Numbered from the stretch's first letter, positions 12,238 through 19,676 are shown. The stretch: 25,968 nt of DNA from Acidimicrobiia bacterium (GCA_041609395.1 JBFIQU010000001.1:1-25968); one strand, 5' to 3'. The notes: a model not told the origin generated them from the sequence alone. Numbers and translations are program-made.

Positions 12238-12726
12238 TCACAGGTAGACGCCGTGCCCTTCGTCCTCGGCGGTGGCGTTCCCGAGCGCCCGCCGGCCCCG
12301 CATCTGTTCCAGCTGAGCCCGGGTGGCGAGCTGCTGGCTGAACAGCGCGGCTTGTATCCCGTTGAAGAGGCCTTCCAGCCAACCGACGAGCTGAGCCTGG
12401 GCCACCCGCAGCTCGGCCTGCGAGGGGGTGGCGTCTTCGTTCCACGGCACGAACATCTCTTCGAGTTCGGCTCGCAGATCTTCTGACACGACCTCGCTGA
12501 GTTCGTCGAGCGATCGCTCGTAGATCTCTGATATGCGACGGCGCCCGGCCTCGTCGAGCGGTGCCGACCGTGCTTCTTCCAGCATGGCGCGGGTCATCGA
12601 AGCGATGCGGATGAGCTTGGAGCCGTCGACGACCGTCGGGGCGTTCTCCTCGGTCCCGGCCTCGGCCGCTTCGACCGCGTCGGGAGCGACGGCTTCACTG
12701 ACCGGCTGCGTAGGGTCCTGTTCCAT
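12238..12726 (-). CDS. bpa: Bacterial proteasome activator Bpa/PafE
   Basis: KLIRIASM..AMLEE...LDEAGRRR...Y, ELRVAQAQLVGWLEGLFNGIQAAL and C-terminal GVYL. Start is ATG 12726 (MEQDPTQ...). Confidence 0.93.
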   Translation of the reverse strand: MEQDPTQPVSEAVAPDAVEAAEAGTEENAPTVVDGSKLIRIASMTRAMLEEARSAPLDEAGRRRISEIYERSLDELSEVVSEDLRAELEEMFVPWNEDATPSQAELRVAQAQLVGWLEGLFNGIQAALFSQQLATRAQLEQMRGRRALGNATAEDEGHGVYL

Positions 12727-12733
12727 CGAGGCC

Positions 12734-12739
12734 AGCTTA
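12734..12739 (-). promoter_or_regulatory. Putative -10 TAAGCT for a leaderless bpa transcript
   Basis: TAAGCT-GGCCTCG-ATG, a 7-nt spacer. Confidence 0.6.
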
Positions 12740-12769
12740 CCGAGGCCCGTACCCGTGTCCGACCCGGGA

Positions 12770-14260
12770 TCATCCCGCCTCGGGCCACCACCCCGTCTCG
12801 GGATGATTGCCGTACCAGGCGAACCAGAACGACTGACCGCTCTGGATGCGGGAGAGGCTGCGACCGTTGCTGAGTGTGATACCGGTGTCGCCGACCACCG
12901 CCACCGGCCCCTCGCCGGCATCCTCATGGCCGAGAGCAGCGGCGATCTCGAAGAACTCGAGGTCGTCGAGGAAGGCGCCGTCGTCGGTGGCAAAGATCTG
13001 TCCGCCCCCGCTGGTCGGCACCACGACGATGGTGTGGCCCCCCGTCGTGCCCGAAATCCGGAACTCCTGCGGACCGCGCTCGCCCAGTCGGGTGACGGCG
13101 AAGGCGAACTGCACCCCGTCGTAATCCAGGGTGATCACCTCTTCCTTGGGCGGGAACGGACCCGGTGCGGCGAACGTCGGGAACCACAGTTCCGGGCCGG
13201 CGTAGTACTCGGCGTAGGCATCACCGGGGATGTACGAGTACTGATTCCCTTCGGGTATGGCGACGACGTCGGTCCCGGGATGGGTGGCTATCCAGTCGCC
13301 GTAGGTCGTCACGGTCATGAAGAAGCGATCCAGTTCGGTGCCGGCCAGCGGCCCGGCGATTGCGATCCCGGTCAGCTGTTCCCACAGCGAGTTCGTCTGG
13401 CGGTCGACCATCACTTTGTTGGAGTTCGTGAGCAGCCCCGAACTCTCGAAGTCCAGGATCCGGTCACCGACTCGACGGGAGTAGAGAATCCCCGTACGGC
13501 ACAGGGTGCAATTGGCCAGTGCCACCGGTTCTCCGCCGAGCGTGTCGTTGGCGAGTTCGTGGTGGTCGAGGATGCGATGCGGATAGGCCCGCGCGCTTCC
13601 GTTGATGACGGCGCCGAACGTGAGTTCATCCCCGGTCATGTGCGTCGCGGCTGCGATGTCGATCGTGGCCGGGCTGTTCAGCTCCGGGATGCCACCCCGC
13701 ACAACCCCGCCCCACTGCAGCCGGCTCGCGGTCACGCCATCGTCGACTTGTGCGAGGAGGCGTTCGAACTCCGTGTCGATGAGGCCGTAGAGCCGTGGCT
13801 TCCATTCGAGGTAGTCGACGCCGGGTTCGGAGTCGTTGCGATAGACCCAACTTCCGTAATGGAGGAAGAGCGCATCGATGTCGTCGGGTGGGTCCTCGCC
13901 GGTCAGAGCAGCAAGCGCACCCACGACCTGCCCCAGCGCGTCTCCGGGCCCCACAAACGGAAGCAGATCGACGAGCCACGGAATCCAGCGGGGATCGCCC
14001 GAGTTGCCCATGGCTTCGGCGGCAACCACTACCGACAGCTGGCTCCGCTCGTCGAGGATGGCGAAGGCGGCCTCACCGGGATCGGCACCGAAGATGTCGG
14101 TCGGTGTGCTCGATGTCGTGGTCGGCGGCGGCGCAGTCGTCGTGGTCGTGGTGGCCGAGATCGGGGCCGCTGCGGCCGGATCCTGAACCTGATCATCACC
14201 GAGAACGAAGGTCGCGCCGGCAAACAGGGCGAGAGCGGCGGTGAACGAGAGAACCTTCAC
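12770..14260 (-). CDS. DUF3179 domain protein, exported, with a CxxC motif
   Basis: WGGV..GGIPELNSP, CTLCRTG, SGLLTNSNKVMVDRQTNSLWEQLTG..I.G and FWFAWY.NHP. N-terminal hydrophobic signal plus a Thr/Pro-rich linker. Start re-called at GTG 14260, which removes the overlap with polX. Confidence 0.85.
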   Translation of the reverse strand: MKVLSFTAALALFAGATFVLGDDQVQDPAAAAPISATTTTTTAPPPTTTSSTPTDIFGADPGEAAFAILDERSQLSVVVAAEAMGNSGDPRWIPWLVDLLPFVGPGDALGQVVGALAALTGEDPPDDIDALFLHYGSWVYRNDSEPGVDYLEWKPRLYGLIDTEFERLLAQVDDGVTASRLQWGGVVRGGIPELNSPATIDIAAATHMTGDELTFGAVINGSARAYPHRILDHHELANDTLGGEPVALANCTLCRTGILYSRRVGDRILDFESSGLLTNSNKVMVDRQTNSLWEQLTGIAIAGPLAGTELDRFFMTVTTYGDWIATHPGTDVVAIPEGNQYSYIPGDAYAEYYAGPELWFPTFAAPGPFPPKEEVITLDYDGVQFAFAVTRLGERGPQEFRISGTTGGHTIVVVPTSGGGQIFATDDGAFLDDLEFFEIAAALGHEDAGEGPVAVVGDTGITLSNGRSLSRIQSGQSFWFAWYGNHPETGWWPEAG

Positions 14261-14267
14261 GTTCGGG

Positions 14268-14295
14268 TCAACGCCAGTCGGAACCGGTTCGTTCC
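14268..14295 (-). promoter_or_regulatory. ECF sigma (SigH/SigR/SigE-type) promoter giving a leaderless DUF3179 transcript
   Basis: GGAAC-GAACCGGTTCCGACTGGC(18 nt)-GTTGA-CCCGAAC-GTG. Confidence 0.7.
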
Positions 14296-14304
14296 ACCGG
14301 GCCG

Positions 14305-16044
14305 TCAGCCACGACGACGGGCGACCCAGGACATGAAGTCGGCGACGGGCCAGGTATTGGCGATCTGACGCCGCTCGATCCACGCCCGCTGCGCGTGGCC
14401 GACGCCCCAGGTCACCCGGCGGAAGTCGTCGCTGTGGTGGGCGTCGGTGTCGATGACGAAGACGATGTTGCGCTCCCGCGCCCGCACCAGCACGTCGTGC
14501 GACGCGTCCAGGCGTTCGAGAGCGCCGTTGATCTCGAGGGCACAGCCCGTCGCTTCGGCGGCGTCGAGAACCGCATCGACGTCGAACTCGATCCCCGGCC
14601 GCCGTCCCAGCATCCTGCCCGACAGGTGCCCGATGGCCCCCACGAACGGATTGTGCATGGCGGTGATGAGCCGTTCGGTCTGGTGCGCGGCGGGAAGATC
14701 GAAGTGGGAGTGCACACTGGCGATCGACCAGTCCAGACCGGCGAGCGTGTCGGGGTCGTAGTCCACGCTGCCATCCGGCGCGATGTTGAGCTCCGATCCC
14801 TGCAGGATCCGCAGTTCGGGATGGCGACCCTGAAGGCGGTCGATGCGTTGTCGCTGCCTGATGAGCTGCTCGCGGCTGATGCCGTTGATGGCCAGGTTCT
14901 CACCGTGGTCGGTGATGGCGATGTACTCCAACCCCCGCTCCGCAGCCGCCGCCACCATCTTCTCCAGGCTCATCCGACCGTCTCCCGACAGCGACGTGTG
15001 CACGTGGAGATCGCCCTTGATATCGGCCTCGGTGACCAGGTCGGGAAGCGTGCCGGCGGCGGCAGCCTCGATCTCACCGGCGTCCTCCCGTAGCGGCGGT
15101 GGAATGAACTCGAGATCGAGGGCTGCGTAGATCTCGTGTTCCGTGGCCGAGGCGACGACGTCACCGCTCTCGCTCTCTTCGAGCGCATACTCGTTGAGCA
15201 ACCAGCCCCGATCCATGGCGAGCTGCCGGAGCTTGATGTTGTGAGCTTTCGACCCTGTGAAGTAGAGCGTCGCCGCTCCGAACGACGCCGGCTCGACGAC
15301 GCGCAGGTCCACCTGGAGACCTTCCCGGGTGAGGATTGCAGCCTTGGTGTCGCCACGAGCGACGACCTCGTGAACGAGCCCGAGACCGACGAAGCGGTCC
15401 ATGACCGGACCGGCGTCGCCGGCGGCGACCACGACGTCGACATCACCGATGGTCTCGAGCATCCGGCGCAGGCTCCCGCAGTACTGCACGGCGGTCACCC
15501 CGGGAACCGCGCCGACGGCGTCCACCACCCGGGCCGCCACGCTCATCGCGGCCGCCGCCGGAGTTCTGCGGTCCTTGCCGTGCATCCCCAGACGTTCGAT
15601 GGCTTTGCCGATCTTCTCCTCGGTCTTGGCGCCGAGGCCCGGCAGGTCGCGCAGCTGCTCTCTTTGGATGGCGTCCCGCAGGCCGTCGAGATCCTCGATG
15701 CCGAGCCGGTCGCGCAACAACAGCAAGGTCTTGGGACCAAGGCCCGGGATTCGGGTGAGTTCCACAAATGGCGGCGGGTACGACGCGCGGAGAGCTTCGA
15801 GCTTCTGCATGGAGCCGGTCGTCACGAACTCCACGATCTTGTCCGCGGTGCTCTTGCCGATGCCCTTCACTGCCACCAGGTCGGCGTGACTCATGGTCGC
15901 GACGTCGCGATGCAGGTCGGCGACCGACTGACGGGCCGCTTCGTAGGCGCGTACCCGGAACGACTGCGCCGATTGGTCCTCGAGCTTGGTCAGGACGATC
16001 AGTTCGTCGAGCGCCGCTACGACGTCCCGATTGGTGACTCCCAC
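14305..16044 (-). CDS. polX: DNA polymerase X / PHP 3'-5' exonuclease
   Basis: HhH motifs GIGKSTA and GLGPKT, GSLRR, intact GDVD and VDLR aspartates, YFTGSKAHN, and PHP ligands DLHVHT, TDH, GSE, SVH, IGH and DTDAH. Confidence 0.95.
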   Translation of the reverse strand: MGVTNRDVVAALDELIVLTKLEDQSAQSFRVRAYEAARQSVADLHRDVATMSHADLVAVKGIGKSTADKIVEFVTTGSMQKLEALRASYPPPFVELTRIPGLGPKTLLLLRDRLGIEDLDGLRDAIQREQLRDLPGLGAKTEEKIGKAIERLGMHGKDRRTPAAAAMSVAARVVDAVGAVPGVTAVQYCGSLRRMLETIGDVDVVVAAGDAGPVMDRFVGLGLVHEVVARGDTKAAILTREGLQVDLRVVEPASFGAATLYFTGSKAHNIKLRQLAMDRGWLLNEYALEESESGDVVASATEHEIYAALDLEFIPPPLREDAGEIEAAAAGTLPDLVTEADIKGDLHVHTSLSGDGRMSLEKMVAAAAERGLEYIAITDHGENLAINGISREQLIRQRQRIDRLQGRHPELRILQGSELNIAPDGSVDYDPDTLAGLDWSIASVHSHFDLPAAHQTERLITAMHNPFVGAIGHLSGRMLGRRPGIEFDVDAVLDAAEATGCALEINGALERLDASHDVLVRARERNIVFVIDTDAHHSDDFRRVTWGVGHAQRAWIERRQIANTWPVADFMSWVARRRG

Positions 16045-16053
16045 GCCCCGGCG

Positions 16054-16422
16054 TCAGCCGAGACGGCGTCGGGTGCGGTTTCTCGTCCTGATGATGCTGC
16101 GGAACACGAGCATGGCCACGAGGACGAGGAGCTGTCCGCCGAGAATCACCCGGGTGAGGTCGATGGCCGGCTCCCACCTGACCCCGTCGTCGCTGAGGAC
16201 GAGAGCGCCGACCGGGCGGGCCACCAGTCCGTAGCCGCCGCCCGACCCGGCCGCACCGGACCCGTCGTCACCTCGTCCGCCCCCGGCACCGCCGGAGATC
16301 CGGGCGGCTGGGATGACGATGGTGCCGTTCCGCTCGACGGGATCGCCGAACACGATCTTGCCGGTGATTGGATTGTCGCGAACGTTGAGGAACTGGCTGA
16401 GGTCGACGTCGTCGAGCTGCAT
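16054..16422 (-). CDS. YtfJ/GerW-like small protein with a C-terminal TM helix
   Basis: VFGDPVERNGTIVIPAARISGGAGGG...GSGGGYG..ARPVGALVL....VRWEP pattern. Starts 2 nt after the WS/DGAT stop. Confidence 0.85.
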   Translation of the reverse strand: MQLDDVDLSQFLNVRDNPITGKIVFGDPVERNGTIVIPAARISGGAGGGRGDDGSGAAGSGGGYGLVARPVGALVLSDDGVRWEPAIDLTRVILGGQLLVLVAMLVFRSIIRTRNRTRRRLG

Positions 16423-16424
16423 CG

Positions 16425-18110
16425 CTACCTCTCTTTCTGGCTGGATGTGGTTCTCGATCGCGGAGCACGCGTGCTCCCGCTCTTCTTGGCCGCCGTGCCG
16501 GTCTTCCCGGCGCTCTTCGAGGTTGCGGTGCGGGAACGGGCCGGGGGCTTCGCCGTCGCGGCGCCGGTCTTCTTGGAGGTCGCGGATGCGGCCTTTGCCT
16601 TCGACGACCTTTGCCCGGACGTCTTCGTCGTTGCCGCTCGCGACTTCGTCGCCGGCCGCTTCGCCGTTCGGCGGCGAGGCGTGGCATCGGGGTCACGACC
16701 GGCCGCGGCGGCATGCAACTCGGCGAGTGCGTCCCGGATACATGCGCTGAAGCGCTCGAGATCCGGGACCAGGTCGTAGTCCGCGGCCAGGCCCCAGGCG
16801 ATAGAGCCCTCATAGCTGAACAGGGCGACCCCGATCCCGTGGTCCATCCACAGCGGGACCATCGGGTACTGGACGACGAGCTTCGATCCGAGCAGATAGA
16901 GCGGAACCTGCGGTCCCGGGACGTTGGTGACCGTCATGTTGAACGGATGCACTGCATTCCAGGCAAGACGTACACCGAGAGAGAGCAGGGTCAACGGCAT
17001 CCACGACGCCGACTGGGTGAGGACCGTGGCTCCCAGCGCCGCATCGTCGTCCTTGAGACGGGCCGTGACCTCACGGACAGCCTCGTACCGCGTGGCGGGG
17101 TCTGCCTCCCGTACCGGGAGGTCGACGAGCCACATGGCAACCTGGTTGCCTCCCGACGACTCCATCTCCTGCGACCGCACGCTTACCGGGGCCATGACCC
17201 GATACTCGAGGGCCTCGACGTCGACTCCGCGTTGCTGCATGAACGACCGCACCGCGCCCGCAACGGTGGCGAGAACGACGTCGTTCACCGTGCCGCCCAT
17301 GTGGTTCTTCACGTACTTCACCTCGTCGAGCGAGGTGACGAGCCAGTCGAACCGCCGGTGCGGGCTGAGATCCTTGTTGACCGGCGTCGCCGAGCTGCGA
17401 CGGAACCAACCCGAACGAGCCGCCTGCAGCGCCGCCTGGACCCGGTGACGTAGGTCGGCCCGGGCCTGTTCCCCGCTTCCGCCGAAGGCGTCCACGATGC
17501 GCATGGCGGCGCGCAACGGCATCGTGGCGAACTCGAACGTCTCGTCGACGATCAGCTCGACGTCGCTCGGAACCGGACGCGGCTCCCACGAGGGGGATTC
17601 TTCGATCTCCTCGACAGGCCACAGCGACAGCATCACCTTGAGGAGATCGACCCCGGCCATACCGTCGATCATGGAGTGGTGCACTTTGACGACGATCGCG
17701 AAGCGCTCGTCGGCGAGACCCTCCACCACCCACAGCTCCCACAACGGACGCGACCGATCGAGTTGCTGGGCGAAGACCCGGGCGGCGAGTTGCTTCAGCT
17801 CGGCCTCGGTGCCGGGCCGGGGAAGGCTGGTGTGGCGGACGTGATAGTCGAGGTTGAAGTGGCGATCGTCGACCCACACCGGGCTGCCGGTCAGCGGGAT
17901 CTGGGCCAACCGCTGCCGATAGCGCGGGATGTACTGCAGCTTGGAACCGACGAAGGCGCGAATGCGCTCGATGTCGATTCCGCCATCCTCACGAAGCAAC
18001 GGCCCGGCCTCGTAGATCTGGATCGCAGCGATGTGCATGTACGAGTTGGGCCGCTCGAGCGCGAGAAACGAACTGTCGAGAAATGAGAGGCGTTCGAAGG
18101 TCTTGGCCAC
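16425..18110 (-). CDS. Wax ester synthase / diacylglycerol acyltransferase (WS/DGAT) with a basic low-complexity C-terminal tail
   Basis: RLSFLDSSFL, catalytic HHSMIDG, LDRSRPLWE, GTVNDVVLA, TNVPGP. Start is GTG 18110 with GGAG 5 nt upstream. Confidence 0.93.
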   Translation of the reverse strand: MAKTFERLSFLDSSFLALERPNSYMHIAAIQIYEAGPLLREDGGIDIERIRAFVGSKLQYIPRYRQRLAQIPLTGSPVWVDDRHFNLDYHVRHTSLPRPGTEAELKQLAARVFAQQLDRSRPLWELWVVEGLADERFAIVVKVHHSMIDGMAGVDLLKVMLSLWPVEEIEESPSWEPRPVPSDVELIVDETFEFATMPLRAAMRIVDAFGGSGEQARADLRHRVQAALQAARSGWFRRSSATPVNKDLSPHRRFDWLVTSLDEVKYVKNHMGGTVNDVVLATVAGAVRSFMQQRGVDVEALEYRVMAPVSVRSQEMESSGGNQVAMWLVDLPVREADPATRYEAVREVTARLKDDDAALGATVLTQSASWMPLTLLSLGVRLAWNAVHPFNMTVTNVPGPQVPLYLLGSKLVVQYPMVPLWMDHGIGVALFSYEGSIAWGLAADYDLVPDLERFSACIRDALAELHAAAAGRDPDATPRRRTAKRPATKSRAATTKTSGQRSSKAKAASATSKKTGAATAKPPARSRTATSKSAGKTGTAAKKSGSTRAPRSRTTSSQKER

Positions 18111-18233
18111 GGGATCTCCGGATCGATTCCCCTCGAGGATACCCATTGCAGCGCACGGCAATCGAAGCCGGCCCTATCAGGGTCGTTGTTCCTCCGCTAC
18201 CGTTGGTTCGAGAAGGAGAAGGGAAAGCGGGAC

Positions 18234-18569
18234 ATGACGGACGAGCAGGTGTTGCGACCCATCGAACGACGGATCCTCGAACTGCACCGGTCCGGAGCGA
18301 CGGCCGCGGACATCGGCGAGCGTTTCAAACGCAGCCCGGAGCACATCGAACGCATCCTCCACCTCGCCCAGCTTCCGGGACGCCGCGGCCACAGCAGCGA
18401 GCGAGGCGGTCTCCGGGCCCTGGAGCGCCGCGTGCTGCGCTGGCGGGCCCAGGGTCTCGACCACAACGAGATCGGACGCCGCTTCCAGCGCAGCCCGCGC
18501 AGCATTCGTCAGGTCGAAGGTCTCGCTCTCTACAAGAAATCGCTGGCGATTCTCAGCCAGGCCAACTGA
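18234..18569 (+). CDS. Hypothetical protein made of two tandem HTH-like repeats (putative DNA-binding regulator)
   Basis: Internal duplication LRPIERRILELHRSG...IGERFKRSP / LRALERRVLRWRAQG...IGRRFQRSP. ATG 18234 follows a purine-rich RBS region (AAGGAGAAGGGAAAG). Confidence 0.8.
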   Translation: MTDEQVLRPIERRILELHRSGATAADIGERFKRSPEHIERILHLAQLPGRRGHSSERGGLRALERRVLRWRAQGLDHNEIGRRFQRSPRSIRQVEGLALYKKSLAILSQAN

Positions 18570-18614: not shown

Positions 18615-18998
18615 ATGACCGCGCCTGACCGGCCACGCCGCGATCCGACCTTCTATCTCTCGGGGCTGGTGGCAGCGCTGTGGGTGGCGCTCGCGTGGAC
18701 GAACCCCGACACGACGTACCACGCCGCTCCTCCCCTCGTGGCCGGTGTCTTCCCTGCCGCACACCGCTGGCGGGCCGGGCCGCTTCCGCCTGCCGCCGCG
18801 CTGGCGGCCGGGTTCGGCGGATGGATCAACGTGGTGGTCGTGGGGATCGCGTTGGGTCTCGCCGACCTGCTGCGAGGGCCGTCGCTACTTCCGGCGGGGG
18901 GGCCCCTCGCCGAGGCTCTCATCCTCGGCGCCGGTGGGGCGTTGCTCGGAGCCGTCGTCGCCGTCCTGCCCAAACGGGAGCATCGAATCCCGAGGTGA
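18615..18998 (+). CDS. Hypothetical small membrane protein (about 4 TM segments)
   Basis: Hydrophobic Gly/Ala/Leu-rich segments. Starts 45 nt after the upstream gene on the same strand. Confidence 0.65.
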   Translation: MTAPDRPRRDPTFYLSGLVAALWVALAWTNPDTTYHAAPPLVAGVFPAAHRWRAGPLPPAAALAAGFGGWINVVVVGIALGLADLLRGPSLLPAGGPLAEALILGAGGALLGAVVAVLPKREHRIPR

Positions 18999-19676
18999 CG
19001 GCGGGAGGGGTGCAATGCATTCGGGAACGTTGTTGCGGACGGAGTTGACCAGCGTCGATACCGGATACTCGGCGAGATCGGAGACGGCGCCGGCCGATGT
19101 GAGCACCCGGCGAATGTCGCCCGGTTCCCGATTCGTAGGATCGAGCCACGCGTCCCACGTGTGCTCTGGAAGCATGACCGGCATTCGGTTGTGCAAGCGA
19201 GCCACCAGCTCACTCGGGTCTCCGGTGAGGATGGAGCACGTCACGAGCGGATCAGCACCCGGTTCGGCCCGCCACCGGTCCCACAAGCCGGCGAGCGCCA
19301 GAGGTTCACCGGACGCTCGGTGGATGTAATGCGGCAGCTTGCCGCGGTCGCCCCGACGCTCCCACTCGAAAAAACCGTCGGCGGGAATCAGGCAGCGCCG
19401 CTCCCGGAAAGAATCGCGGAACGCCGGCTTCTCGTGGGCAGTTTCCATACGGGCGTTGATGTGCCGGGCGGCGATGGTGCGATCCTTCGCCCACCACGGC
19501 ACGAGCCCCCAGCGCATGGTTCCGATCCGGCGCTCGTCGTCATGGATCACGACGGCATACACCGCATCGGTCGGCGCCACGTTGTAGCTCGGAGCCAGGG
19601 ACTCCGACACGGCAACGGCCCCGAAATAGCCGGCATAGTCGTCGATGTCGCCGGTAAAGGTATAGCGCCCGCACAT
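18885..19676 (-). CDS. SOS response-associated peptidase (SRAP/YedK/HMCES), abasic-site crosslinking protein
   Basis: N-terminal MCGRY (catalytic Cys2), YNVAPT, MRWGLVPWWAK, INARMET, RRCLIPADGFFEW and LHNRMPV. The true start is ATG 19676. Confidence 0.95.
   Translation of the reverse strand: MCGRYTFTGDIDDYAGYFGAVAVSESLAPSYNVAPTDAVYAVVIHDDERRIGTMRWGLVPWWAKDRTIAARHINARMETAHEKPAFRDSFRERRCLIPADGFFEWERRGDRGKLPHYIHRASGEPLALAGLWDRWRAEPGADPLVTCSILTGDPSELVARLHNRMPVMLPEHTWDAWLDPTNREPGDIRRVLTSAGAVSDLAEYPVSTLVNSVRNNVPECIAPLPPSPRDSMLPFGQDGDDGSEQRPTGAEDESLGEGPPRRK

What the first reader, a model, noticed from the sequence alone, without database searches (positions are those of the whole stretch)
14305..18110. 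Apparent WS/DGAT - YtfJ - PolX operon coupling neutral-lipid synthesis to DNA repair
Seen: three genes on the same strand with gaps of only 2 nt (WS/DGAT to YtfJ, with the RBS AGAAAGAGAGG inside the WS/DGAT 3' end) and 9 nt (YtfJ to polX), which suggests co-transcription. Established: WS/DGAT makes wax esters/TAG for lipid droplets. PolX-PHP does gap-filling and end-processing repair. In Rhodococcus, lipid droplets bind genomic DNA through the basic-tailed protein MLDS and protect it under stress. Inference: this may be an undescribed droplet-nucleoid protection module in which the lipid-making enzyme itself carries the DNA tether (see the tail finding), a membrane-anchored YtfJ-like protein acts as scaffold, and PolX is co-expressed. 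SRAP/HMCES lies within 1 kb of the WS/DGAT start.
Basis: partly seen in the sequence, partly recalled or inferred. Interest (0 to 1): 0.72.

Follow-up and report, generated by a model that had tools for sequence, protein, structure and literature searches.

The report
Lineage-specific lipid-synthase / YtfJ / PolX operon
Three tightly packed genes (a storage-lipid synthase with a basic tail, a small YtfJ-like membrane protein and the repair polymerase PolX) are real and probably one transcript, but comparison with relatives points to an old lipid-synthase/PolX neighbour pair that picked up a stray ytfJ gene in this genome only, not to a conserved lipid-droplet/DNA-repair machine.

Summary
WS/DGAT (16425-18110), a YtfJ-like gene (16054-16422) and PolX-PHP (14305-16044) lie on the minus strand with gaps of 2 and 9 nt. 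A Shine-Dalgarno-like AGAAAGAGAGG sits inside the WS/DGAT 3' end. Contigs from two independent metagenome studies bridge both junctions.

Co-transcription is likely but not shown; no RNA run was listed. The only TANNNT on this strand between 14250 and 18260 is a family-conserved -10-like box before WS/DGAT. This genome also lacks the leaderless promoter box (TAGATT, 12-13 nt before the start codon) that 9 of 14 polX loci carry.

The three-gene module is not conserved. No ytfJ lies between or beside WS/DGAT and polX in 29 relatives' ytfJ loci, in 9 metagenome ytfJ loci, or at about 140 other WS/DGAT loci; one relative has ytfJ about 1.7 kb downstream of polX. WS/DGAT followed by polX is one ancestral linkage in this Acidimicrobiia family and two sister families. 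The two genes are directly adjacent in three other lineages and are split by opposite-strand genes in at least six. Basic tails recur on WS/DGATs in unrelated contexts, and untailed WS/DGATs also sit beside polX.

Verdict: a lineage-specific operon by descent plus insertion. A droplet-nucleoid repair module is unsupported but not excluded.

The parts
18136..18141 (-). TATCCT, a -10-like (TANNNT) hexamer about 25 nt upstream of the WS/DGAT start. It is the candidate promoter of the unit.
   Evidence: It is the only TANNNT on the minus strand between 14250 and 18260. A TANNNT box (TACAAT, TACACT, TATCCT or TAAGCT) lies at or near the same place upstream of the orthologous WS/DGAT in 7 related loci; L115's TAAGCT is offset in the alignment. 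That it acts as a promoter is inferred.
18115..18119 (-). GGAGA, a Shine-Dalgarno-like site 4 nt before the WS/DGAT GTG start.
   Evidence: Read.
16425..18110 (-). WS/DGAT (wax-ester synthase / diacylglycerol acyltransferase), 561 aa, with the HHSMIDG active-site motif.
   Evidence: PF03007, PF06974, TIGR02946 at 415 bits.
16425..16700 (-). Lys/Arg/Ser/Thr/Ala-rich C-terminal tail of the WS/DGAT. The 101 residues past the aligned catalytic core hold 13 K, 13 R and 4 D/E.
   Evidence: No Pfam match. The DNA is confirmed by independent contigs.
16428..16438 (-). AGAAAGAGAGG, a Shine-Dalgarno-like site for ytfJ inside the last WS/DGAT codons.
16054..16422 (-). YtfJ/GerW-family gene, 122 aa. It has an N-terminal YtfJ domain with a Gly-rich loop, a C-terminal hydrophobic helix and a basic end (tail-anchored topology).
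   Evidence: The alignment with 13 homologues conserves the helix and the basic end.
14305..16044 (-). PolX-PHP DNA polymerase / 3'-5' exonuclease, 579 aa. The GDVDV (DxD) and HVH motifs are present.
   Evidence: NF006375 at 486 bits. Its upstream region lacks the leaderless -10 box of its orthologues.
18234..18569 (+). Divergent small protein with two HTH repeats. It is a conserved divergent partner of this WS/DGAT and a candidate local regulator.
   Evidence: Sigma70_r4 and HTH hits. The gene is present and divergent in G001, G003, G006, L112, L113, L115 and L117.

Best explanation
This is a lineage-specific tricistronic operon made by descent plus insertion.

The ancestor of this Acidimicrobiia family already had WS/DGAT immediately upstream of polX on the same strand. 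In the window's lineage a free-standing ytfJ-like gene landed in that junction in the same orientation. polX lost its own leaderless promoter here. All three genes are now most likely read from one sigma-A-type promoter (TATCCT at 18141-18136) in the 123-bp region shared with a divergent HTH regulator. ytfJ and polX would be translated from the polycistronic RNA; ytfJ has an SD-like site inside the WS/DGAT 3' end.

Each product then does its family's own job:
- WS/DGAT makes triacylglycerol or wax esters, and its Lys/Arg-rich tail could bind polyanions such as DNA.
- The YtfJ-like protein is a tail-anchored membrane protein of unknown role.
- PolX-PHP fills gaps and cleans 3' ends.

Any benefit of the linkage is at most shared timing, such as growth arrest or stress. 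It is not a physical droplet-nucleoid-repair machine.

Shown: gene identities, spacing, distribution in relatives, and the presence or absence of promoter motifs. Inferred: promoter use, co-transcription, the order of events, and every statement about function.
For: Anatomy:
- No terminator-like site lies on the minus strand inside the unit.
- Only one TANNNT lies on that strand in 4 kb, and it is aligned with TANNNT boxes upstream of orthologous WS/DGATs.

polX promoter. In 9 of 14 polX loci, TAGATT, TAGAGT or TATCCT starts 12-13 nt before the start codon, which is leaderless geometry. This holds even in L115, where the WS/DGAT stop codon is part of the box. The box is missing in G000, G005, L113, G030 and G017, exactly the loci where polX abuts a same-strand gene.

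WS/DGAT-polX linkage:
- WS/DGAT lies upstream of polX on the same strand within 2.7 kb in G000, G001, G003, G005, G006 (all family-f1 genomes that have a WS/DGAT) and G015 (f9). This is out of 41 genomes of the order that hold both genes.
- The two are directly adjacent, with gaps of 10-16 nt, in G005, L113 and L115/L116.
- In the quick WS/DGAT tree, f1, f9 and f11 form one supported clade (SH-aLRT 97), which means one origin of the linkage.

ytfJ distribution:
- Homologues occur in 36 of 60 relatives.
- None of the 29 loci fetched has WS/DGAT or polX within 1.5 kb.
- The nearest metagenome homologues (55-64% identity) sit beside peptidase M3, ClpB, SnoaL or MMPL genes.
- No ytfJ lies within about 6 kb at 58 relatives' WS/DGAT loci or 85 metagenome WS/DGAT loci.
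Against: - There are no RNA data; none was listed for this DNA.
- ECF-type or atypical internal promoters cannot be excluded.
- The absence of TANNNT inside the three genes is not significant on its own. It is 0 against about 2.3 expected from the other genes of the window (P about 0.1).
- The WS/DGAT-polX pair has persisted across genera at 53-68% protein identity while its flanks were reshuffled. A neutral reading does not require that, and it could reflect selection for co-expression.
- WS/DGATs of this clade repeatedly carry possible DNA-binding appendages, which keeps a nucleoid link open.
- The tree used was the quick one; the careful search did not finish.
Confidence: 0.6

Rival explanations
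1. Adaptive co-regulation without physical coupling. WS/DGAT and polX are kept together because both are needed in non-growing or stressed cells: storage lipid is laid down while a repair polymerase works on non-replicating DNA. The operon, with ytfJ as a passenger or a third quiescence gene, ensures shared timing under the divergent HTH regulator.
For: - The pair persists in f1 and f9 while the flanks change. Direct adjacency with loss of polX's own promoter arose or persisted in G000, G005 and L113.
- The wider block holds other stress-linked genes (SRAP, proteasome activator Bpa, WhiB) and is syntenic across three families. polX lies within 5 kb of bpa in f1, f2 and f9.
- The divergent HTH partner is conserved.
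Against: - All cases trace to one ancestral linkage, so there is no independent replication.
- In at least six lineages an opposite-strand gene (ceramidase-like, LLM oxidoreductase or PQQ propeller) separates the two genes, and polX keeps its own promoter.
- Most of the order keeps the two genes far apart.
- There are no expression data.
Confidence: 0.2
2. One reading: a droplet-nucleoid protection module. The tailed WS/DGAT tethers lipid droplets to DNA, the membrane-anchored YtfJ-like protein scaffolds the assembly, and PolX is co-expressed to repair the tethered DNA.
For: - The tail is Lys/Arg-rich like the DNA-binding C-terminus of Rhodococcus MLDS (PMC5504291).
- Sister genera replace the tail with a confidently folded winged-helix-like domain (pLDDT 91.7; best fold matches are DNA-binding winged helices such as RacA, Rex and MarR, all at E 0.1 or weaker).
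- Short basic tails sit directly upstream of polX in L113 and L115.
Against: - ytfJ takes part in this genome only.
- Untailed WS/DGATs also abut polX (G005, G015).
- Long basic tails occur next to glgC, YjeF_N and acyl-CoA dehydrogenase genes in f11, in the lspA-rluD-dnaE block, and in a context with no DNA gene.
- No MLDS-type droplet-targeting domain and no exact PAKKA motif is present.
- Nothing tested here bears on binding.
Confidence: 0.07
3. The adjacency is incidental and the genes are transcribed separately. Non-canonical or ECF-type promoters inside the upstream coding regions drive ytfJ and polX independently, and the tight spacing only reflects a compact genome.
For: - Gaps of 16 nt or less are common between functionally unrelated same-strand genes in this window (4 of 8 other junctions).
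- An ECF-type motif (GGAAC-N18-GTTGA) is visible just downstream of polX, before the next gene. Such promoters are therefore plausibly in use in this region.
Against: - No TANNNT lies inside the unit.
- polX has specifically lost the leaderless box that its orthologues carry.
- ytfJ has an SD-like site and no -10 box at leaderless distance.
Confidence: 0.13

Closest known systems
Rhodococcus jostii MLDS / MLDSR lipid-droplet-DNA system (PMC5504291)
   Same: A Lys-rich, histone-H1-like C-terminal region on a protein of neutral-lipid biology. An HTH regulator gene lies next to it.
   Different: - Here the basic region is fused to the lipid-synthesising enzyme itself, not to a structural droplet protein.
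- There is no MLDS-like N-terminal droplet-targeting domain and no exact PAKKA motif.
- The HTH gene is divergent, not in the same operon.
- DNA binding and droplets are untested.
- The described system has no polymerase and no YtfJ.
Bacterial PolX with a PHP domain (NCBIfam NF006375; the enzymes of Bacillus subtilis, Deinococcus radiodurans and Thermus thermophilus, from my own knowledge)
   Same: A full-length match (486 bits) with HhH, palm/thumb and PHP domains. The DxD and HxH motifs are visible.
   Different: - No WS/DGAT-linked polX came up in the paper searches made here.
- Here polX lacks the leaderless promoter of its orthologues and follows ytfJ by 9 nt.
Bacillus subtilis YtfJ (GerW), Pfam PF09579
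   Same: The domain match is above the Pfam cut-off, and the Gly-rich loop is conserved.
   Different: - The host is an Acidimicrobiia MAG.
- These actinobacterial members carry a C-terminal membrane helix and a basic end.
- The family's function is unsettled even in Bacillus, where GerW is reported as not needed for germination (PMC4366231).
WS/DGAT gene clusters described in marine sediments (PMC10351704)
   Same: Acidimicrobiia WS/DGATs from marine samples.
   Different: The conserved contexts described there are Kennedy-pathway genes. The word 'polymerase' does not occur in that paper.

Membership tests
WS/DGAT (TIGR02946; PF03007 + PF06974) | Both domains present and whole-protein score above the curated cut-off | tested here: met
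   PF03007 8.7e-64, PF06974 5.1e-29, TIGR02946 415.4 bits against a cut-off of 309.95.
WS/DGAT (TIGR02946; PF03007 + PF06974) | HHxxxDG active-site motif | tested here: met
   HHSMIDG is read in the translation and is invariant in the alignment of 10 relatives.
WS/DGAT (TIGR02946; PF03007 + PF06974) | Acyltransferase activity producing wax esters or triacylglycerol | not testable with these tools
   This needs an enzyme assay.
Bacterial PolX-PHP (NF006375) | Full-length equivalog match above the cut-off | tested here: met
   486 bits against a cut-off of 426, residues 4-577. HHH_8, HHH_5, thumb and PHP domains are present.
Bacterial PolX-PHP (NF006375) | Catalytic DxD in the palm and an HxH metal site in the PHP domain | tested here: met
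   GDVDV and HVH are read in the translation. This was by inspection only; the palm Pfam hit is below its cut-off (22.5 against 25).
YtfJ/GerW (PF09579) | Domain match above the gathering score | tested here: met
   29.5 bits against a cut-off of 25 and 29.9 bits in the genome scan.
YtfJ/GerW (PF09579) | Sporulation or forespore role as in Bacillus | not testable with these tools
   No expression or phenotype data exist. Homologues occur in 36 of 60 Acidimicrobiia relatives.
MLDS-type lipid-droplet-DNA tether | PAKKA-type Lys-rich DNA-binding repeats | tested here: inconclusive
   The tail has 13 K and 13 R in 101 residues but no exact PAKKA. Relatives such as P0203 and P0213 have KKPAA repeats and a precomputed PF07382 hit.
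MLDS-type lipid-droplet-DNA tether | Dedicated droplet-targeting domain and demonstrated DNA recruitment to droplets | not testable with these tools
   This needs cell biology and EMSA.
Conserved WS/DGAT-YtfJ-PolX module (as proposed) | The same three-gene order in relatives | tested here: not met
   It was found in G000 only.
Conserved WS/DGAT-YtfJ-PolX module (as proposed) | Co-transcription of the three genes | tested here: inconclusive
   Motif evidence favours it. No RNA run was listed.
Conserved WS/DGAT-YtfJ-PolX module (as proposed) | The tail on WS/DGAT correlates with polX adjacency | tested here: not met
   WS/DGATs with a tail but no polX nearby: f11, L059-L062. WS/DGATs without a tail but next to polX: G005, G015.

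The most novel reading that the evidence does not exclude
In one Acidimicrobiia family the storage-lipid synthase itself is a nucleoid-associated enzyme. Orthologous WS/DGATs carry either a Lys/Arg-rich histone-like tail or a winged-helix domain at the C-terminus. They are ancestrally linked to the repair polymerase PolX, and in several lineages co-transcribed with it. Lipid bodies would then form on or near DNA, and repair capacity would be expressed with them at growth arrest. The ytfJ-like tail-anchored protein would be a recent, lineage-specific addition.
Probability: 0.1. Interest if true: 0.7.

Novelty: new member of a known kind. Interest (0 to 1): 0.3.

Why it matters
Read as proposed, the locus would have extended the one known bacterial lipid-droplet-DNA link (Rhodococcus MLDS) to a new class and tied it to DNA repair. 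The comparative data reduce it to an ordinary, lineage-specific operon of three known families.

Three things remain useful:
- A clear case of how an operon grows. A gene was inserted into an old gene pair, and the downstream gene's leaderless promoter was lost.
- A promoter-motif contrast that can be tested directly by TSS mapping.
- The observation that WS/DGATs of this clade repeatedly acquire putative DNA-binding C-terminal appendages. This makes the separate tail hypothesis worth a simple EMSA and localisation test.

Tried and rejected
- RNA evidence. No RNA run was listed for the junction region, so co-transcription could not be tested with reads.
- Consensus promoter and terminator scan. 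It found no sigma-70-type site and no minus-strand terminator inside the unit, which is uninformative for a 67% GC actinobacterium.
- Genome-contig scan with the WS/DGAT. It returned only 10 loci, and only the one already known (G001) has polX.
- A WS/DGAT-DNA-polymerase rule. Three basic-tailed WS/DGATs lie directly upstream of dnaE. In the wider sample the gene sits in the old lspA-rluD-dnaE block with 1-3.5 kb of other genes before dnaE. One tailed WS/DGAT has no polymerase nearby. I rejected this as a specific association.
- ytfJ near polX elsewhere. G030 has polX, a molybdopterin oxidoreductase and then ytfJ on one strand. This is a single case in a different order with an unrelated gene between, so I treat it as coincidence within the same synteny block.
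- A pseudogene remnant of ytfJ in the G003 gap. There is none; the gap encodes an opposite-strand ceramidase-like protein.
- PDB sequence search with the YtfJ-like protein. Nothing was found below E 0.68.
- Absence of TANNNT inside the three genes as a statistical argument. It is not significant against the window's own coding strands.
- The careful maximum-likelihood tree did not finish, so the quick tree is used.
Full report
**What is there**

The window is 67% GC. A GC3-based gene map with Pfam and NCBIfam scans gives a long minus-strand run:
- SRAP, 18885-19676.
- A plus-strand two-HTH gene, 18234-18569.
- WS/DGAT, 16425-18110.
- A YtfJ-like gene, 16054-16422.
- PolX-PHP, 14305-16044.
- DUF3179, 12770-14260.
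- The proteasome activator Bpa.
- A DDAH-like hydrolase.
- WhiB.

Family assignments are solid. WS/DGAT matches PF03007 and PF06974 and scores 415 bits on TIGR02946. PolX scores 486 bits on NF006375. YtfJ scores 29.5 bits on PF09579, just over the cut-off.

AGAAAGAGAGG runs into the WS/DGAT stop TAG, two bases follow, then the ytfJ ATG. Nine bases separate the ytfJ stop from the polX GTG.

Contigs assembled independently from runs of two studies cover both junctions with 0-12 differences. The order is therefore real in the population.

The host is an Acidimicrobiia MAG (70% complete, 270 contigs) from marine samples. It holds one WS/DGAT and one ytfJ.

**Is it one transcript?**

No RNA run could be listed, so the evidence is indirect.

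First, the promoter upstream of WS/DGAT. The 123-bp region between WS/DGAT and the divergent HTH gene carries TATCCT at 18141-18136. In an alignment of the same region from seven related loci, six carry a TANNNT box (TACAAT, TACACT or TATCCT) at the corresponding place. L115 carries one (TAAGCT) a few columns off. It is the only TANNNT on the minus strand between 14250 and 18260. TANNNT is rare on coding strands throughout the window (0.6 per kb), so zero inside the three genes is not significant by itself.

Second, the polX promoter is more telling. In 9 of 14 polX loci from the order, TAGATT, TAGAGT or TATCCT starts 12-13 nt before the start codon, which is the geometry of a leaderless promoter. 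This holds even in L115, where the upstream WS/DGAT ends 10 nt before polX and its stop codon is part of the box. The window's polX has CTGACG at that place. The other loci without the box (G005, L113, G030, G017) are also those where polX abuts a same-strand gene.

Third, ytfJ has an SD-like site and no -10 box at leaderless distance. No terminator-like hairpin lies on the minus strand within the unit.

I put co-transcription of the three genes at roughly 70-75%.

**Is the gene order conserved?**

I searched 60 relatives: 7 of the same family (f1) and 53 of the same order. One of them, G022, is unpublished. It enters only the tallies and one of the 29 ytfJ loci, and no specific claim rests on it.

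ytfJ:
- Homologues occur in 36 of the 60 relatives.
- In all 29 loci fetched there is no WS/DGAT or polX within 1.5 kb.
- The commonest neighbour is an ABC-2 transporter pair, in 8 loci.
- The nearest ytfJ proteins in public metagenomes (55-64% identity) stand alone beside peptidase M3, ClpB, SnoaL or MMPL genes.
- No ytfJ lies near WS/DGAT at 58 relatives' WS/DGAT loci or at 85 metagenome WS/DGAT loci.
- ytfJ between WS/DGAT and polX was therefore found in this genome only.

WS/DGAT and polX:
- 41 of the 61 genomes hold both genes.
- WS/DGAT lies upstream of polX on the same strand within 2.7 kb in G000, G001, G003, G005 and G006 (every f1 genome that has a WS/DGAT) and in G015 (f9).
- G035 (f9) keeps the block but lacks polX.
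- In two f11 genomes the genes are 6-8 kb apart and convergent.
- Elsewhere they are on different contigs or more than 50 kb apart.

The closest WS/DGATs in public assemblies (66-68% identity) add more cases:
- L113: HTH, WS/DGAT, 13 nt, polX, DUF3179.
- L115/L116: HTH, WS/DGAT, 10 nt, polX.
- L117 and L112: the G003-type arrangement.

What lies between the two genes varies:
- Nothing in G005 (16 nt), L113 and L115.
- An opposite-strand ceramidase-like membrane protein in G001, G003, G006, L117 and L112, plus an LLM oxidoreductase in G006.
- An opposite-strand PQQ propeller in G015.
- ytfJ in G000.

In a quick ML tree of 59 WS/DGATs, the f1, f9 and f11 proteins form one supported clade (SH-aLRT 97), and the tree follows the family taxonomy. 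The linkage therefore has one origin, and the many kin are not independent replicates.

polX is also within 5 kb of bpa in f1, f2 and f9. The region is an old synteny block of functionally mixed genes.

**Do the tail and polX go together?**

C-terminal extensions of WS/DGAT vary within the clade:
- Long and basic in G000 and L112.
- Short and basic in L113 and L115.
- A conserved extension of about 60 residues in G001, G003, G006 and many metagenome proteins.
- None in G005, G015 and G035.

Long basic tails also occur elsewhere:
- In all five f11 proteins, whose neighbours are glgC-like, YjeF_N and acyl-CoA dehydrogenase genes.
- In a clade inserted in the lspA-rluD-dnaE block.
- In a protein with no DNA-related neighbour.

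The tail and polX adjacency therefore vary independently.

The dnaE adjacency looked striking at first, with three loci directly upstream of dnaE. In the wider sample 1-3.5 kb of other genes intervene, so it reflects that old block rather than a rule.

**What the pieces suggest**

The tail is Lys/Arg-rich like the DNA-binding end of Rhodococcus MLDS, whose Lys-rich PAKKA region binds DNA non-specifically and links droplets to the nucleoid (PMC5504291). It has no exact PAKKA motif, and no binding was tested here.

The extension of about 60 residues in sister genera folds confidently (pLDDT 91.7). Its best PDB matches are winged-helix DNA-binding domains: the RacA-DNA complex (probability 0.99, rmsd 1.9 over 50 columns), Rex, MarR and SmtB. 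All have E of 0.1 or more, and Pfam gives only sub-threshold HTH hits. Two unrelated, possibly DNA-binding appendages on orthologous enzymes is a real lead for the separate tail finding. It does not make ytfJ or polX part of a machine.

The YtfJ-like proteins of these actinobacteria share a C-terminal hydrophobic helix and a basic end. The family's role is unsettled even in Bacillus (PMC4366231).

A published survey of marine WS/DGAT contexts reports Kennedy-pathway clusters and does not mention a polymerase (PMC10351704).

**Verdict**

The functional reading is only partly supported.

The best explanation is an ancestral WS/DGAT-polX pair that, in this lineage alone, received a ytfJ-like gene and now runs from one promoter. 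The benefit is at most shared timing.

An earlier follow-up in this scan on other DNA (e1-1480818) reached a similar conclusion for another WS/DGAT operon with an optional inserted gene. I did not test that case.

Interest is modest (0.3). The residual novel case, a nucleoid-associated lipid synthase co-expressed with PolX, is about 10% likely and would be interesting if true.

Noticed in passing
L032:3751-3975 (G003), L031:1701-1928 (G001), L034:3622-3846 (G006); proteins P0110-P0120: Orthologous WS/DGATs of sister genera end in a conserved domain of about 60 residues instead of a basic tail. AlphaFold2 gives pLDDT 91.7. The best PDB fold matches are winged-helix DNA-binding domains (RacA-DNA 5i44_B, Rex, MarR, SmtB), but all have E of 0.1 or more. 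Pfam gives only sub-threshold HTH hits.
   Followed up: partly
polX upstream regions: L031, L032, L034, L035, L037, L038, L039, L115, L117; window 16045-16060: A conserved TAGATT, TAGAGT or TATCCT box starts 12-13 nt before the polX start codon in 9 of 14 loci, which is a leaderless-promoter geometry. In L115 the stop codon of the upstream WS/DGAT is part of the box. The box is absent in the window.
   Followed up: yes
L060, L061, L062, L069, L074 and about 16 metagenome loci (e.g. L130, L164, L172, L177): Another WS/DGAT clade is inserted in the lspA-rluD-dnaE block. Many members carry long KKPAA- or AAKK-type tails that contain a recurring KKRPP(L/M)GT motif.
   Followed up: partly
L031:2127-3065(-), L032:3992-4651(-), L034:4873-5805(-), L117:6896-7555(-), L112:2457-2573(-): A ceramidase-like membrane protein gene (weak PF05875 hit) lies on the opposite strand between WS/DGAT and polX in several sister lineages.
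   Followed up: partly
window 12238-16044 and relatives G002, G004, G007, G008, G015, G019, G026, G030, G048, G053, G057: polX lies within 5 kb of the proteasome-activator gene bpa in three families of the order (f1, f2, f9). This is an old synteny block of functionally mixed genes.
   Followed up: partly
window 18234-18569 (+): The small two-HTH protein is a conserved divergent partner of this WS/DGAT clade (G001, G003, G006, L112, L113, L115, L117). It is the most obvious candidate regulator of the unit.
   Followed up: partly
whole window, coding strands: TANNNT is strongly depleted on the sense strand of genes. There are 12 in 19.9 kb of other genes (0.6 per kb), against about 4.5 per kb expected from base composition.
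   Followed up: no
L006, L008-L012, L016, L017 (ytfJ loci of relatives): The actinobacterial YtfJ-like genes encode tail-anchored proteins (conserved C-terminal helix plus basic end). In 8 of 29 loci they lie beside an ABC-2 transporter ATPase/permease pair, mostly directly upstream of it.
   Followed up: partly
L036:4066-7817 (G030): In one genome of another family, polX, a sulfite-oxidase-like molybdopterin oxidoreductase and ytfJ follow each other on one strand. It is the only other case of ytfJ near polX.
   Followed up: partly
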